A stretch of DNA of 37,730 nt from a virus (IMGVR_UViG_3300009502_000023:1-37730), one strand, 5' to 3'; positions 11,208-25,503 are shown, counted from the stretch's first letter. Numbers and translations are program-made. The notes: a model not told the origin generated them from the letters alone.

Positions 11208-11984
11208 ATGAGCGAAATCTTTATTACCTCTGATCTTCATTTTGATCATGCTAATGTAGCGTTACATTGTGATCGAAATAAATGGATCTGTCCTAATCCT
11301 TTTTATGATTCAACTAAACCATATCATTTTAAATTCAACAACCCAAAAGCAGTTCGTATTGATCAGCACAATGAAGACCTAATCAACAATTGGAATTCTG
11401 TTGTTGGTAAAAGAGATGAAGTATGGATTCTTGGCGATCTTGCTTGGAAACGTCATAGTCATTTTATTATGGCTCTAAATGGAAAGAAATTTCTTATTAG
11501 AGGAAATCATGATAAGATGGACTTAAAGGCATATAATCTTTTTGCTGAGATTGGCGGAGCAAGATATCAATATTCTTTCTTTACTCAGATCCAAAAGCAA
11601 CAAGTAATGCTTTCCCACTGTCCTTATGAATCATGGTTTTCCTCATGCCACGGAAGTTGGCATATACATGGGCATTGTCATGCTCGGCTTCGAGAACGAC
11701 CCGATCTTCTTCGTATAGATTGCGGTGTTGATTGTTGGGGATATTTTCCAGTACCATGGGAAGTAATTCAAAAGAAGATGACAATTAAAGAACAGATGAA
11801 AAAAGAGTTCTTTAGTTCTAATTGTCACCGAGATCCAAATAATTCAGATTCTAATCTAAATATGAGAGAAGTTCAAAAACAGAATATTCAACTTATGATT
11901 GGTGCTGGAATTAAAGTAGAGCAATCAATAGTTTCAGAAGAGAAAATGATTGATTTTGCTAAAGAAGATCTTGATGAGGAATAA
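11208..11984 (+). CDS. calcineurin-like metallophosphoesterase
   Basis: SDLHFDH, LGD, GNHD, SHCP, HGHCH, DCGVD motifs. Confidence 0.9.
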   Translation: MSEIFITSDLHFDHANVALHCDRNKWICPNPFYDSTKPYHFKFNNPKAVRIDQHNEDLINNWNSVVGKRDEVWILGDLAWKRHSHFIMALNGKKFLIRGNHDKMDLKAYNLFAEIGGARYQYSFFTQIQKQQVMLSHCPYESWFSSCHGSWHIHGHCHARLRERPDLLRIDCGVDCWGYFPVPWEVIQKKMTIKEQMKKEFFSSNCHRDPNNSDSNLNMREVQKQNIQLMIGAGIKVEQSIVSEEKMIDFAKEDLDEE

Positions 11985-11996
11985 AATTCGATTTAT

Positions 11997-12120
11997 GAGG
12001 CTGTAGCTCAGACTCAGATACTGACTCTATCGGAATCGGCCGATAACGACGAGTTGGTTGAAGATCCATGAGCGCTAGTTTACTAGAGGACGTCGGGGTT
12101 TATGGCCGACCAGTCTCTCC
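11997..12120 (+). ncRNA. aberrant tRNA-like structured RNA (expanded D-loop, collapsed anticodon loop)
   Basis: GAGGCTG/CAGTCTC acceptor, TA-GCTC...GAGC D-stem around ~60 nt, CTAG-TTTA-CTAG, AGGAC, GTCGG/CCGAC stem without TTCRA; no CCA. Confidence 0.55.
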
Positions 12121-12828: not shown

Positions 12829-13010
12829 GTGACCATCAAACCAGATGGAATGAACTTAGAGAAATTACTAAAAAACATAAAATGGTACTTATAACTGCAA
12901 CCGAATGTACAGTTAATAGACCGTATTATCGAACAAAAAATGGTTTACCCAAACCATCATATGAAATTGTTATTATAGATTATATGGATCTGCTTGTACG
13001 GGAGAAATAA
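12825..13010 (+). CDS. small protein with DnaB/gp41-like motif fragments
   Basis: ELREITKKHKMVLITATE and IVIIDYMDLL resemble helicase motifs H3 and H2; ATGA overlap. Confidence 0.5.
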   Translation: MSDHQTRWNELREITKKHKMVLITATECTVNRPYYRTKNGLPKPSYEIVIIDYMDLLVREK

Positions 13011-13304
13011 ATGGATAACAATGATCCAAATATGATGGAGCCGTATGATAACAGAATTAAAATTATACCTCCTACAGGCACGACAATTGCTGATGTCAAT
13101 TCTATGTGTAACAAGATAAAGAAAGATTTTCTAAGTCTTGATAATATCGACTGCAAATATCAACCCAGAACTATGCTTTGTATTGCTAAATGTAAACATA
13201 GAGAACGTACTTGGTGGGTGTGTAGAGAATTATGTGATGATTTTAAACCCTATCCGGGAACTGAACACTGGGTGGAAGAGTTTAAAAAACAAATGAATAA
13301 ATAA
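13011..13304 (+). CDS. hypothetical protein
   Basis: 97-aa ORF after GGGAG. Confidence 0.6.
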   Translation: MDNNDPNMMEPYDNRIKIIPPTGTTIADVNSMCNKIKKDFLSLDNIDCKYQPRTMLCIAKCKHRERTWWVCRELCDDFKPYPGTEHWVEEFKKQMNK

Positions 13305-13318
13305 AGGTATAGGATTAT

Positions 13319-13393
13319 GCCTCTATCGTCTAGTGGCCAGGACAGATGCTTTTCAAGCATCGAACCGGTGTTCGATTCACCGTAGAGGCGCCA
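13319..13393 (+). tRNA. tRNA-Glu(UUC)
   Basis: GCCTCTA/TAGAGGC, GATGC-TTTTCAA-GCATC, TTCGATT loop, CCA. Confidence 0.95.
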
Positions 13394-13398
13394 ACTAT

Positions 13399-13472
13399 GA
13401 AGAGCAGTGTGGGTCGAATCCCACTGGGGCGGAGACGCCTTGTGATGTAATAGGAAGCATAGCTCTTCTCCA
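13399..13472 (+). ncRNA. circularly permuted tRNA-like RNA (stem, T arm, closed acceptor-like hairpin, D arm, stem, NCCA)
   Basis: GAAGAGC/GCTCTTC terminal stem + T + CCA; GTGGG-TCGAAT-CCCAC; TGGGGCG-GAGA-CGCCTTG; TG-ATGT-AATAGGAA-GCAT-A. Confidence 0.7.
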
Positions 13473-13492
13473 ATTTCTTTAGGAGACTCGAT

Positions 13493-13756
13493 ATGGAAGT
13501 CAAGACAGTAATTAAATGCGGTAATATCGACATGGGAGTGTACTTGTTGGACGACATCAAAGCCCGCCTTAACGATCGGCATCTGAAAGGGTCCATCTCT
13601 GTGATCAAATCCATCGAAAGCGATGGGCACACATGGATCACGATCGTAATAGAGTTTCCGCGCGAGTTCAATCAGGAATTGATGAATGATGCCACGACAT
13701 ACATCAAAGGGCTTGTAACTGGTATTCTACTATGGTCTGGTGTGGAAGTTATTTAG
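13493..13756 (+). CDS. hypothetical protein (visibly more GC-rich codons)
   Basis: AGGAG RBS; many C-ending codons. Confidence 0.75.
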   Translation: MEVKTVIKCGNIDMGVYLLDDIKARLNDRHLKGSISVIKSIESDGHTWITIVIEFPREFNQELMNDATTYIKGLVTGILLWSGVEVI

Positions 13757-13799
13757 TGACGGATTCAATATTGTAAATTGAAACCAGAAAGAAAATCTA

Positions 13800-14171
13800 A
13801 TGACTAAAAACAATGCGATAAGTCAAGGACTCAATTTTACTGGAGTATATGATCGTTTTAAAGACGAAGTTAATAAACAACTTGTTGATCTTAGAAAACG
13901 ATATCCTGATTGTAAATTTTATTTTGTTTCTGAACCTGATGATAAATTAAGTAGGGGTGGTGGGGGCGGAATTGGTTATAGTATTTACGCCGATAAAAGA
14001 TTTTTTGCACACGAACAAATTCAACGAAATACTGATTTTATAACAAAAGAATATCCTCAAACTTTAACGTATTTAACCGAAAAATATAATAAAGATATGA
14101 AAGGATTAGAGGTTAAAAAAATTAGAGCAGAAAGTTATATAAAGGAAGCACAATTGATTTTAGATAGTTAG
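13800..14171 (+). CDS. hypothetical protein
   Basis: 123 aa; its TAG is followed in frame by an endonuclease remnant. Confidence 0.65.
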   Translation: MTKNNAISQGLNFTGVYDRFKDEVNKQLVDLRKRYPDCKFYFVSEPDDKLSRGGGGGIGYSIYADKRFFAHEQIQRNTDFITKEYPQTLTYLTEKYNKDMKGLEVKKIRAESYIKEAQLILDS

Positions 14172-14423
14172 ATATTAGATAGTTTAAAAATTAAATGGAT
14201 CAGACCCAATCCACTCGCATGGGTTGATTCTAATAATAAAATTCATATGTATTATCCTGATTTTTATCTTACAAATTTCAATACATATTTAGATCCAAAA
14301 AATCCATATTGTATGATTAAGGATGAAGAAAAAATGAATGAAATATCAAAAAAATATAAAATTGTTTTTGGTGATATTTCTATTGTTAAACAACATATTA
14401 TTTCATTGGTCAATAAGAATTAG
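14172..14423 (+). pseudogene. start-less C-terminal remnant of a TnsA-like PD-(D/E)xK endonuclease
   Basis: Hand translation ILDSLKIKWIRP...HMYYPDFYL...YLDPKNPY...DEEKM; same signature as 17479-18171. Confidence 0.7.
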
Positions 14424-15363: not shown

Positions 15364-16173
15364 ATGTCTATCGACACATCCAAATTTGTCTCGTCTGAAC
15401 GATATCAAGAAATAAGTCTTCGTCTTGAAAAAATTGAGAAAGATGAAAATGTTCGAATTCTCTTTGCTTGCGAATCTGGAAGTAGAGCATGGGGATTTCC
15501 ATCACAAGATAGTGACTATGATGTAAGATTTATTTACGTTCATCCCATCAACTGGTATCTTTCAATTCAGGATCGTCGAGATGTTATTGAAAGACCATTA
15601 GAAAATCTAATTGATGAGAGTGGGTGGGAACTTAGAAAAGCACTTCGTCTTTTGAAGAAATCAAATCCACCACTTTTAGAGTGGATGCAATCATCAGTCA
15701 TTTATCGTTCTGATTCTGATTTTGTAAATTCATTTAAACAACTAATGACCAACTATTATTCTCCTCGTCAATGTATGTATCATTATTTACATATGGCGAA
15801 AGGTAATATTCGAGAATATCTTAAAGGTGAACGAGTTTGGACAAAGAAGTATTTTTATGTACTTCGACCAATATTAGCTTGCCGGTGGATTGAATCTGGT
15901 CTTGGTATTGTACCAATGGAGTTTCAGATATTAGTTGATTCTGTAGCTTGTCCTCCTGATATCAGAATGTATATTAATCGACTTCTTGAAGATAAACTTA
16001 CTGGTCGAGAAATGGATGATGGTCCTAAAATTGTTGCATTTCATAGATTTTTTGATGATGAGATCAGAAGGATTGATTCTATAGTTAAAGATATACCTGT
16101 CGGTAATCAATCTGACTATGAACTCTTCAATGAGTTATTTAGATCGATGGTTGGTAAGTATATAGAGGACTAA
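15364..16173 (+). CDS. Pol-beta superfamily nucleotidyltransferase (RlaP/YcgL type, RNA-repair associated)
   Basis: LFACESGSRAWGFPSQDSDYDVRFIYVH (GS..DxD), GWELRKALRLL, KKYFYVLRP. Confidence 0.85.
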   Translation: MSIDTSKFVSSERYQEISLRLEKIEKDENVRILFACESGSRAWGFPSQDSDYDVRFIYVHPINWYLSIQDRRDVIERPLENLIDESGWELRKALRLLKKSNPPLLEWMQSSVIYRSDSDFVNSFKQLMTNYYSPRQCMYHYLHMAKGNIREYLKGERVWTKKYFYVLRPILACRWIESGLGIVPMEFQILVDSVACPPDIRMYINRLLEDKLTGREMDDGPKIVAFHRFFDDEIRRIDSIVKDIPVGNQSDYELFNELFRSMVGKYIED

Positions 16174-17403: not shown

Positions 17404-17439
17404 TTTAAAATTTTAGCTCAGATAATAAGAGCTAATAAC

Positions 17440-25189: not shown

Positions 25190-25503
25190 GGGTCTGAACC
25201 GGTATCGATTTAGGAACGGCAATAGATGCTGCGTGTCGAGGTATTTGTTGGTTACCCTCGTTAAAAAGGACTGACTGCAATAACGAACAACATCGTTAGT
25301 TTCTTCCGTGCCCCCGCTCTCGCAGCGGCTTAACGGATGGGTTCCCTTGAGTGTCCAGTAGAGGATGACCCATCGACACAGGACAGATTAGTTAAGTGAA
25401 TGCTTAACAGATATCAGATATCAATTCGTCAGAAATGACTACACACGTAGATGTATCGAAAGCAGTCTTAAACACGGGAGTTCAACTCTCCCCAGATCCA
25501 CCA
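25190..25503 (+). ncRNA. ssrA: tmRNA, one-piece; tag ORF 25277-25333 AITNNIVSFFRAPALAAA*
   Basis: GGGTCTG/CAGATCC acceptor with G3.U70, T arm GGGAG-TTCAACT-CTCCC, ACCA end, pk1-like CGAGG...CCTCG-TTAAAA, tag ending LAAA. Resume codon inferred. Confidence 0.92.

What the first reader, a model, noticed from the sequence alone, without database searches (positions are those of the whole stretch)
13399..13472. Circularly permuted tRNA-like RNA with a new NCCA end, directly behind tRNA-Glu
Seen: a 74-nt unit folding as GAAGAGC stem / AGT / T-like arm GTGGG-TCGAAT-CCCAC / TGGGGCG-GAGA-CGCCTTG (7-bp stem closed by a GNRA loop) / TG + D arm ATGT-AATAGGAA-GCAT-A (nearly identical to the D arm of this window's tRNA-Gln) / GCTCTTC-T-CCA. 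This is a tRNA opened at the anticodon with its acceptor end sealed by a tetraloop. The former anticodon stem is now a perfect 7-bp helix ending in discriminator + CCA, like an acceptor stem. Known: bacterial YrlA Y RNAs have this arm order but carry a long Ro60-binding stem; no Ro60 gene is in the window. Inference: a phage tRNA mimic or decoy that keeps the D/T elbow but has no anticodon to cut. It could titrate anticodon nucleases, RNase P or tRNA-sensing defence proteins, or be aminoacylated at the wrong end. Standard tRNA finders would probably miss it.
Basis: partly seen in the sequence, partly recalled or inferred. Interest (0 to 1): 0.88.

Follow-up and report, generated by a model that had tools for sequence, protein, structure and literature searches.

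The report
Anticodon-less permuted tRNA mimic in phage
A freshwater jumbo phage carries, right behind its tRNA-Glu gene, a 74-base sequence that folds like a tRNA with its parts in rotated order, no anticodon and a tRNA-type CCA tail; the shape is real, but only this one phage lineage has it, so whether it has a function is unproven.

Summary
Window 13399-13472 (+) reads exactly as described and folds on its own, and in context, into a four-way junction: a 7-bp terminal stem plus UCCA, a T-like arm, a 7-bp GAGA-capped hairpin, U8-G9, a D-like arm and A26. In the 101-kb contig only the true tRNAs give a comparable fold. tRNA finders and Rfam miss it, but ARAGORN calls it a tRNA once it is re-permuted and given an artificial 7-nt loop.

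It has the arm order of YrlA-type Y RNAs, a kind this scan has often met in phages. I recovered eight permuted modules from IMG/VR, and two of them lie beside Ro60/TROVE genes. This unit is not a YrlA. It has no basal Ro-binding stem, scores under about 11 bits against RF02553 (four of the six GNRA-capped modules score 39-42), and no Ro60-like gene lies in the DNA held.

It sits where syntenic relatives carry tRNA-Pro, at the left edge of a 1-kb indel. Its D arm matches the phage's own tRNA-Gln, and its T loop is one base short. No diverged homolog was found, so there is no covariation evidence.

Best reading (0.42): a young, lineage-specific tRNA mimic processed like a tRNA. Strong rival (0.35): neutral debris of tRNA-gene rearrangement.

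The parts
13319..13393 (+). tRNA-Glu(UUC) with encoded CCA, 5 nt upstream of the unit; conserved in the relatives L030 and L031
13394..13398 (+). 5-nt spacer ACTAT; U at -1 and G at +1 around the predicted RNase P site 13398/13399
   Evidence: the RNase P preference is from general knowledge and was not tested
13399..13405 (+). 5' strand of the 7-bp terminal helix (anticodon-stem equivalent in the permuted reading)
13406..13408 (+). AGU linker, equivalent to a 3-nt variable loop; its U can form the A15:U48 Levitt pair
   Evidence: the mapping to tRNA positions is inference
13409..13424 (+). T-like arm: stem GTGGG/CCCAC, identical to the T stem of the phage's tRNA-Gly and of the L030 tRNA-Pro-like gene; loop TCGAAT, one nt shorter than canonical
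13425..13442 (+). Acceptor-stem equivalent: 7 bp (C1-G72, G2-C71, two more G-C pairs, then three G.U) closed by a GAGA tetraloop
13443..13444 (+). U8-G9 equivalent
13445..13461 (+). D-like arm (ATGT/GCAT, loop with A14, A15, G18, G19, A21) plus A26; near-identical to the D arm of the window's tRNA-Gln
13462..13472 (+). 3' strand of the terminal helix, then U + CCA, as at the end of this phage's tRNA genes
13481..13756 (+). Shine-Dalgarno AGGAG (13481-85) and an 87-aa ORF (13493-13756) that starts 20 nt after the CCA; its homologs elsewhere lack the unit
13394..14423 (+). 1030-nt segment (unit plus ORFs of 87, 123 and 58 aa) that stands where syntenic relatives have a short spacer and tRNA-Pro

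Best explanation
The unit is a lineage-specific small RNA gene derived from tRNA. It is an anticodon-less tRNA mimic with YrlA-type permuted arm order, built from parts like the phage's own tRNA genes. The D arm resembles tRNA-Gln and the T stem resembles tRNA-Gly. It occupies the slot where related phages keep tRNA-Pro. It has no promoter-like site of its own and is probably co-transcribed with the upstream genes and tRNA-Glu. Inferred steps: RNase P cuts at 13398/13399 (U-1/G+1, 7-bp helix, 3' UCCA), which also frees the 3' trailer of tRNA-Glu, and 3' trimming stops at the encoded CCA. This would give a 74-nt RNA that presents a tRNA elbow with two arms of about 12 stacked layers. One arm is closed by GAGA. 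The other ends like an acceptor stem. Such an RNA cannot decode. It would act by occupying proteins or RNAs that read tRNA shape and the CCA end (RNase P, CCA-adding or repair nucleotidyltransferases such as the phage's RlaP, elbow binders). Shown: sequence, fold, strand specificity, tRNA-likeness, genomic position, lineage restriction. Inferred: transcription, processing, stability, any binding partner.
For: The fold is tRNA-grade and unique among the non-tRNA sequence of the contig and belongs to the + strand. The re-permuted unit is called a tRNA by ARAGORN at default settings. U8, A14, A15/U48, G18-G19, A21, A26 and G53-C61 are in register. The 7-bp helix plus N-CCA copies the end format of this phage's tRNA genes. 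The spacing to tRNA-Glu (5 nt) is like that of the tandem tRNA pairs in the window. The same architecture (T arm, 7-bp tetraloop-capped stem, U8-R9, D arm) recurs in IMG/VR phages. I recovered six GNRA-capped modules with compensatory changes and two UNCG-capped ones. Two of the GNRA-capped modules lie beside TROVE/Ro60 genes. M. smegmatis YrlA, with a 7-bp capped stem, is cut by RNase P and receives CCA (PMC4201824). One IMG/VR module starts directly after the CCA of a tRNA-Asp and ends in a 5-bp stem plus A-CCA (L041). The neighbourhood holds an RlaP nucleotidyltransferase, predicted to restore RNA ends (PMC7824862).
Against: No diverged homolog was found, hence no covariation. The unit is absent from the syntenic relatives L030 and L031, from all contigs holding homologs of the two flanking genes, from three related IMG/VR contigs, and from two pattern scans that kept its own loop sequences. 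All copies seen are identical or nearly so. The T loop has 6 nt, so the canonical T-loop/D-loop elbow may not form. The capped stem has three consecutive G.U pairs. The unit lies exactly at an indel edge in a tRNA region with other tRNA debris. No expression data exist. The D arm identical to tRNA-Gln argues for a very recent origin, so the intact helices need not reflect selection.
Confidence: 0.42

Rival explanations
1. Neutral by-product. The unit would be a young remnant of tRNA-gene rearrangement: a tandem duplication of one tRNA gene truncated at both ends inside the anticodon loop, or recombination between the phage's tRNA genes when the 1-kb cassette replaced tRNA-Pro. It would be transcribed passively or not at all, and have no function.
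For: It is confined to one near-clonal lineage. The slot holds tRNA-Pro in L031 and a D-armless tRNA-Pro-like gene in L030. The region is being reshuffled: a homing endonuclease sits between Glu and Pro in L031, and assemblies break inside tRNA-Glu. The D arm is identical to the phage's own tRNA-Gln. The T loop lacks one base and there are three G.U pairs in a row. The 3' end ...TC TCC AA resembles a Gly(UCC) anticodon loop, and joining the ends gives ARAGORN a weak tRNA-Gly(tcc) call. A tandem copy of one tRNA gives complementary acceptor and anticodon strands for free.
Against: A truncated tandem duplicate explains only 5 of the 7 terminal pairs. It does not explain why the discriminator, CCA and spacer between the copies shrank to exactly a GNRA tetraloop. 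It also does not explain why the helix is followed by N-CCA in the register of a real acceptor end. The fold is as stable as the real tRNAs, and the layout matches a recurrent, covarying phage RNA design.
Confidence: 0.35
2. Pure processing signal. The tRNA shape would serve only as an RNase P site that trims tRNA-Glu's 3' trailer and creates the 5' end of the mRNA for the 87-aa gene, taking over the punctuation role of the lost tRNA-Pro. The excised RNA itself would be waste.
For: It lies 5 nt after the CCA of tRNA-Glu and 8 nt before the Shine-Dalgarno site of the next gene. It has no promoter-like motif or terminator of its own, whereas the phage's T[TA]GAATAAAYTAAAA motif precedes other units, including the tmRNA. 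It sits in the slot where relatives have a second tRNA.
Against: A plain hairpin with CCA would be enough; the full D/T elbow mimic and capped 12-bp stack are not needed. Other tRNAs in the window are followed directly by ORFs without such an element.
Confidence: 0.12
3. Y RNA. The unit would be the RNA partner of a Ro60-like protein encoded in the unsequenced two thirds of the genome, as proposed for many phage permuted tRNA mimics.
For: The arm order is that of YrlA (PMC4201824). Two of the six GNRA-capped IMG/VR modules with this core lie 156 and 573 nt from TROVE genes. The contig is only about 32% of the genome.
Against: There is no basal stem and no GNCGAA(N)G motif outside the T loop. 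RF02553 gives no hit to the unit at E<=10, while four of the six control modules score 39-42 bits. There is no TROVE or DUF2828 match in G000 or in three related contigs. Known partners are encoded close by.
Confidence: 0.05
4. True permuted tRNA gene. The ends would be ligated into a circle and the GAGA loop opened by RNase P and 3' processing plus CCA addition, giving a decoding tRNA-Gly(UCC), as for the permuted tRNA genes of Cyanidioschyzon.
For: Joining the ends with the last A removed gives a 5-bp stem and the 7-nt loop UCUCCGA, which ARAGORN in relaxed mode calls tRNA-Gly(tcc). The M. smegmatis YrlA precedent shows RNase P cutting and CCA addition at a capped 7-bp stem (PMC4201824).
Against: The loop would have C33 instead of the universal U33. 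With the full CCA it has 8 nt. The phage already has a normal tRNA-Gly(UCC) at contig position 51121. No RtcB, Rnl1 or Rnl2 ligase is in the held contig, although the Rnl1 control search found the family in none of the control genomes, so that result says nothing about Rnl1. The T loop is defective. No such pathway is known in bacteria or phages.
Confidence: 0.03

Closest known systems
YrlA-type Y RNAs of bacteria and phages (Rfam RF02553; Chen et al. 2014, PMC4201824), especially M. smegmatis YrlA
   Same: The order is variable region, T arm, loop-capped acceptor-like stem, D arm, with the RNA's ends on the anticodon side. The capped stem has 7 bp, as in M. smegmatis YrlA, which RNase P cleaves. 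It is encoded among phage tRNA genes.
   Different: There is no long basal stem and no Ro60-binding motif. The ends form only a 7-bp helix followed by N-CCA. The unit is 74 nt against a 114-position Rfam model. There is no RF02553 hit and no Ro60/TROVE or DUF2828 gene in the DNA held. The T loop has 6 nt.
Phage permuted tRNA-like modules recovered here from IMG/VR (L041, L052-L055, L057, L078, L081) and reported many times by this scan
   Same: The core geometry is the same: 5-bp T stem, 7-bp tetraloop-capped stem, U8-R9, 4-bp D stem. The L055 module has the same T stem, GTGGG/CCCAC. The L041 module also starts right after a tRNA and ends in a stem plus A-CCA.
   Different: Most sit on long basal stems, are YrlA-like to Rfam (39-42 bits), and some lie beside Ro60 genes. 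They have canonical 7-nt T loops. This unit is a minimal stand-alone version with no relatives.
Circularly permuted tRNA genes of Cyanidioschyzon merolae and some other algae and archaea (reviewed in PMC4090602)
   Same: The 3' half is encoded upstream of the 5' half, with the acceptor strands joined by a short linker.
   Different: Those genes keep a complete anticodon loop after circularisation and rely on the archaeal/eukaryal splicing endonuclease. Here no proper 7-nt loop with U33 results, and no such pathway is known in phages.
T4 RNAC and RNAD (species 1 and 2 RNAs) from the T4 tRNA cluster (PMC3014915; NC_000866 70908-71171)
   Same: They are small RNAs of unknown role encoded directly behind a tRNA gene in a phage tRNA cluster. 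RNAC has a canonical T arm near its 3' end.
   Different: They are 119-139 nt long. Neither RNA gave a full-length match to the permuted-core model R2, and their minimum-energy folds show no capped acceptor stem. The annotated ends carry no CCA.
tRNA-like domain of tmRNA, including two-piece permuted tmRNA
   Same: It is an anticodon-less tRNA mimic. Permuted tmRNA genes also place the T arm and 3' acceptor strand before the 5' strand.
   Different: There is no tag reading frame or pseudoknots. ARAGORN and Rfam give no tmRNA hit here. The phage's own one-piece tmRNA lies at 25190-25503.

Membership tests
Canonical tRNA (RF00005) | Cloverleaf in the order acceptor, D arm, anticodon arm with a 7-nt loop, T arm | tested here: not met
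   No RF00005 hit at E<=10 in 13250-13600 other than tRNA-Glu. ARAGORN makes no call. The middle arm is a 7-bp stem with a GAGA tetraloop.
Canonical tRNA (RF00005) | 7-bp acceptor helix followed by a discriminator and CCA | tested here: met
   GAAGAGC/GCTCTTC followed by U + CCA. Topologically, though, this helix is the anticodon-stem equivalent.
Canonical tRNA (RF00005) | 7-nt T loop (T54-Psi55-C56-R57-A58-N-N) closed by G53-C61 | tested here: not met
   The loop is TCGAAT, 6 nt. The class model R2 needs a one-base deletion to align it. Independent contigs confirm the sequence.
YrlA (RF02553) | Arm order V, T arm, capped acceptor-like stem, D arm | tested here: met
   the definition is from PMC4201824.
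YrlA (RF02553) | Basal stem formed by the 5' and 3' ends, carrying the Ro60-binding motif GNCGAA(N)G | tested here: not met
   The terminal helix stops at 7 bp and the flanks do not pair. The only GNCGAA lies in the T loop and lacks the closing G.
YrlA (RF02553) | Match to the Rfam covariance model (gathering score 69 bits) | tested here: not met
   No hit at E<=10 (the listed hits of 11-15 bits are ordinary tRNAs). As a control, four of six IMG/VR modules score 38.8-41.8 bits over the full model length.
YrlA (RF02553) | Ro60/TROVE gene nearby | tested here: not met
   No PF05731 or PF11443 match in G000 (101 kb, about 32% of the genome) or in G001-G003. The genome is incomplete, so absence from the phage is not shown.
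Permuted tRNA gene (Cyanidioschyzon type) | Circular joining of the ends restores a normal anticodon arm (5-bp stem, 7-nt loop, U33) | tested here: not met
   Joining gives an 8-nt loop, or 7 nt if the last A is removed, with C33. ARAGORN accepts it only in relaxed mode, as tRNA-Gly(tcc).
Permuted tRNA gene (Cyanidioschyzon type) | Circular RNA intermediate and a ligase | not testable with these tools
   No RNA data. No RtcB or Rnl2 match in the contig. The Rnl1 control search matched none of the control genomes, so it cannot show that Rnl1 is absent.
Permuted / two-piece tmRNA | Tag-peptide reading frame and pseudoknots joined to the tRNA-like domain | tested here: not met
   74 nt with no room for a tag. 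No tmRNA-family hit at this site.
Phage permuted tRNA-like module class (model R2, built here) | T arm, 7-bp tetraloop-capped stem, U8-R9, D arm in one 52-55-nt core | tested here: met
   R2 aligns 13409-13460 end to end, capped hairpin included, at 33.8 bits. Caveat: R2 also scores tandem-tRNA junctions at 21-40 bits, so the score alone does not discriminate. What distinguishes the unit is that the capped hairpin itself is aligned. I also chose the six training modules for their pairing.

The most novel reading that the evidence does not exclude
The unit is a working two-ended tRNA mimic, a design not described so far. RNase P would cut both at 13398/13399 and inside the GAGA loop (13435/13436, the site equivalent to the one cleaved in M. 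smegmatis YrlA). This would give a nicked tRNA-shaped duplex of two 37-nt strands. Each arm would then be a 7-bp helix with a 4-nt 3' overhang, UCCA on one and GAGA on the other. One or both ends would be substrates or traps for CCA-adding and repair nucleotidyltransferases (for example the phage's RlaP) or for tRNA-sensing defence proteins. A related version: ligation of the ends yields the first permuted tRNA gene of a bacterial virus.
Probability: 0.06. Interest if true: 0.85.

Novelty: new variant of a known kind. Interest (0 to 1): 0.4.

Why it matters
If it is functional, it would be the smallest stand-alone form of the permuted tRNA mimics carried by many phages. It would have no Ro60-binding handle, and its free end would be remodelled into a tRNA-type 7-bp helix plus NCCA. 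That would point to targets other than Ro60, namely enzymes that read the tRNA elbow and the CCA end. It would also show how such mimics arise, by reshuffling a phage's own tRNA genes in a slot that relatives use for a real tRNA. If it is debris, it is a useful caution. Rearranged tRNA genes can produce tRNA-grade folds with neat helices, so architecture alone should not be read as function.

Tried and rejected
1. Rfam at gathering and at E<=10: nothing at the unit. RF02553 run separately on the whole contig: only weak hits on ordinary tRNAs.

2. blastn of 12900-14100 against GenBank phages: no match. By protein, the cultured relatives are below about 40% identical.

3. The search for related loci with the two flanking small proteins and with RlaP in IMG/VR: no relatives. 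The terminase gave three related fragments without the unit.

4. Homologs of the downstream 87-aa protein (61-69% identical) and their contigs L019-L029: no unit, and mostly no gap upstream. The 123-aa ORF has no homologs.

5. Pattern scans. T loop + GNRA + TG in IMG/VR gave 11 hits, none of which folds as the unit; three identical loci share its T-arm letters but nothing else. A full-geometry pattern with the unit's 6-nt T loop gave 0 hits. T loop + D loop in JGI metagenomes gave 9 hits, none with the fold.

6. Sequencing runs: no RNA holder listed. Contigs of four DNA runs showed identical or near-identical copies only. The two differences in run X5 were not located, and the run X7 relative is the L030 type without the unit.

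7. Looking for the parent tRNA: no tRNA in the held loci matches both halves; only the Gln D arm and the Gly/Pro-like T stem match.

8. Partner protein: Atlas look-alikes of the 87-aa and 123-aa proteins were low-confidence generic folds and were not used. DUF7873, named in earlier notes, could not be searched for lack of its accession.

10. L081, a second possible NCCA-ended module: the CCA may be part of a longer clamp helix, so I do not count it.

11. blastn of the L041 module against GenBank phages: no match.

Full report
THE OBSERVATION. RNAfold's minimum-energy and centroid structures are the proposed four-way junction (-28.8 kcal/mol; shuffles average -20.6; z -2.5). The same fold forms autonomously within a 196-nt context beside tRNA-Glu. 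The reverse complement loses the D-like arm and half of the capped hairpin (-21.7). This is expected because four pairs are G.U, so the structure belongs to the + strand, on which nearly all long ORFs of the contig lie.

As a direct chance test, I scanned the 101,730-bp contig on both strands for a 7-bp helix (at least 6 Watson-Crick pairs) followed by N-CCA and enclosing three hairpins. The scan returned 10 true tRNAs, this unit at a tRNA-like energy, and two weak chance hits. Ten shuffled genomes gave 0-3 hits each. ARAGORN and Rfam miss the native sequence. ARAGORN at default settings calls the re-permuted sequence with an artificial 7-nt loop a tRNA.

Mapped onto tRNA numbering, the unit has C1-G72, U8, G9, A14, A15 with U48, G18-G19, A21, A26 and G53-C61. 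Two blemishes: the T-like loop is TCGAAT, 6 nt rather than 7, and the capped stem ends in three consecutive G.U pairs. The 6-nt loop is not an assembly error, because contigs from other studies and a Logan assembly carry the same letters.

THE GENOME AND THE SLOT. The window is the first 37.7 kb of an IMG/VR contig of 101.7 kb, estimated at 32% of a jumbo phage. The phage encodes multisubunit RNA polymerase beta-type proteins, a terminase, topoisomerase II, a radical-SAM enzyme, an RlaP nucleotidyltransferase, 16 tRNAs and a tmRNA. Cultured relatives are distant.

The unit begins 5 nt after the encoded CCA of tRNA-Glu and ends 8 nt before the Shine-Dalgarno site of an 87-aa ORF. No promoter-like site, terminator, or copy of the phage's recurrent T[TA]GAATAAAYTAAAA motif precedes it. 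If it is expressed, it is therefore co-transcribed with tRNA-Glu.

A syntenic relative from the same metagenome, L030, matches the window up to the CCA of tRNA-Glu and again from 14424 onward. In between, L030 has only 87 nt. These hold a tRNA-Pro(UGG)-like gene without a D arm (Rfam tRNA 49.5 bits). A second relative, L031, has tRNA-Glu, a minus-strand homing-endonuclease gene, then a canonical tRNA-Pro. The window instead has 1030 nt: the unit and three small ORFs.

So the unit stands in the tRNA-Pro slot, at the left edge of an indel. It shares no sequence with tRNA-Pro beyond the T stem of the L030 copy.

CONSERVATION. I found no diverged homolog.
- The single-sequence covariance model R1 finds only the unit itself in the contig. 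It finds nothing in three related IMG/VR contigs, in L030/L031, or in eleven contigs carrying homologs of the downstream gene.
- In most of those contigs the homologous gene abuts another gene.
- Pattern scans of IMG/VR and of the JGI metagenomes that kept the unit's own loop sequences found nothing with the fold.
- Copies in other freshwater samples are identical, or differ at two unlocated positions.
- Short contigs repeatedly end inside tRNA-Glu. This fits a population with different sequences downstream of that gene.

There is thus no covariation evidence, and the element looks young. Its U8-G9, D arm and A26 are almost letter for letter those of the window's own tRNA-Gln, whose ATGT/GCAT D stem is unusual and differs from the tRNA-Gln of L030. 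Its T stem equals that of the phage's tRNA-Gly.

WHAT KIND OF THING IT IS. The arm order (variable region, T arm, loop-capped acceptor-like stem, D arm) is that of YrlA Y RNAs (PMC4201824). Earlier notes of this scan report many such modules in phages.

I tested this independently with two IMG/VR pattern scans for a canonical T loop, a tetraloop-capped 7-nt stem, U8-R9, a D loop and a later CCA. They returned eight real modules: L041, L052-L055 and L057, which are GNRA-capped, and L078 and L081, which are UNCG-capped. The six GNRA-capped ones show compensatory changes in every pair of the capped stem, with the caveat that I picked them for their pairing. Two lie 156 and 573 nt from TROVE/Ro60 genes. 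Rfam YrlA matches four of them at 39-42 bits.

The present unit differs from these modules in four ways:
- RF02553 gives it no hit even at E<=10.
- Its ends form only a 7-bp helix, with no Ro-binding motif.
- No TROVE or DUF2828 gene occurs in the contig or in three related fragments.
- Its free end has the format of this phage's tRNA genes, 7 bp + N + CCA.

A class model of the core, R2, aligns 13409-13460 end to end, including the capped hairpin (33.8 bits). However, R2 also scores tandem-tRNA junctions at similar levels in this window, in L030 and in T4, so the score alone proves little.

One IMG/VR module, L041, also starts immediately after a tRNA's CCA and ends in a 5-bp stem plus A-CCA. 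It is a possible second example of the NCCA-ended form, but it is weakly folded and was picked up by a pattern that required CCA. L081 may be a third, but its CCA could belong to a longer clamp helix.

T4's RNAC and RNAD are small RNAs of unknown role encoded right behind a tRNA (PMC3014915). Neither gave a full-length match to R2, and their predicted folds show no capped acceptor-like stem, so they are not of this design.

MECHANISM. My best reading (0.42) is a lineage-specific tRNA mimic that is matured like a tRNA. RNase P would cut at 13398/13399, and trimming would stop at the encoded CCA. The product has two stacks of about 12 layers meeting at a tRNA-like corner. One stack is T stem plus capped stem. 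The other is D stem, A26 and the terminal helix ending in UCCA. It cannot decode, and it offers nothing to nucleases that recognise anticodon loops. Its plausible targets are therefore readers of tRNA shape and of the CCA end. All of this beyond the fold is inference.

The main rival (0.35) is that the unit is neutral debris of recent tRNA-gene reshuffling. The lineage restriction, the position at the indel edge, the defective T loop, the D arm copied from tRNA-Gln and the Gly-anticodon-like 3' end all fit that view. A truncated tandem duplicate would inherit complementary strands without selection. It does not easily explain the exact GNRA cap or the extra two pairs followed by N-CCA.

Smaller rivals are a mere RNase P punctuation site (0.12), a Y RNA whose Ro60 partner lies in the unsequenced part of the genome (0.05), and a true permuted tRNA-Gly gene (0.03).

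VERDICT. The unit is a new variant of a known kind, a minimal, Ro60-free, NCCA-ended version of the phage permuted tRNA mimic, with moderate interest. The scan has found the general design many times on other DNA. What is particular here is the tRNA-style end and the visible birth of the element in a tRNA slot.

Noticed in passing
L030:8322-8385 (+): In the syntenic relative the slot after tRNA-Glu holds a 64-nt tRNA-Pro(UGG)-like gene. It has an acceptor stem, anticodon arm, T arm and CCA, but its D arm is reduced to GCGC. Rfam tRNA scores it 49.5 bits and ARAGORN misses it. It may be a D-armless tRNA or a decaying gene.
   Followed up: partly
window 14450, 22998, 25162, 25522, 35042 (+): The motif T[TA]GAATAAAYTAAAA occurs 8 times within 2 mismatches (2.5 expected). 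It lies about 25 nt upstream of gene starts and 28 nt before the tmRNA, and is conserved before the homologous gene in L030 and L031. It is probably a promoter of the phage's own RNA polymerase.
   Followed up: partly
window 25190-25503 (+): Rfam finds a full-length one-piece tmRNA (85.5 bits) that ARAGORN does not report.
   Followed up: no
window 17411-17435 (+): Directly after tRNA-Met(CAU) there is a 7-bp hairpin, TTAGCTC...GAGCTAA, that looks like a tRNA D arm without GG. In L030 further tRNAs follow at this place, and here a 230-aa endonuclease-like ORF follows. It may be a tRNA 5' remnant or a terminator.
   Followed up: no
window 13312-13410; loci L071-L077: Many independent short-read contigs end about 40 nt after the 97-aa gene, inside tRNA-Glu. 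Others restart at 13410. This suggests that co-occurring strains differ downstream of tRNA-Glu.
   Followed up: partly
L041:3207-3281 (+); L081:2867-2950 (-): Two permuted tRNA-like modules from other IMG/VR phages have a terminal helix followed by (N)CCA. The L041 module starts right after the CCA of tRNA-Asp. The L081 module has a perfect 7-bp helix, TCGGGGA/TCCCCGA, then CCA, but may be clamped by a longer helix.
   Followed up: partly
window 11911-12066 vs L030:5811-5966: This stretch downstream of the metallophosphoesterase gene is about equally conserved in all three reading frames, as expected of a conserved non-coding RNA.
   Followed up: no
L030:13063-13878 and L030:1-376: In the relative the RlaP gene is split into two ORFs of 61 and 166 aa, whereas it is intact here (15364-16173). 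The relative's topoisomerase IV-A-like gene carries intein and HNH domains.
   Followed up: no
L053:5695-6037 (-): An IMG/VR phage contig with more than 25 tRNA genes gives a weak full-length match to bacterial RNase P RNA class A (26.6 bits, E 2e-4, far below the gathering score).
   Followed up: no
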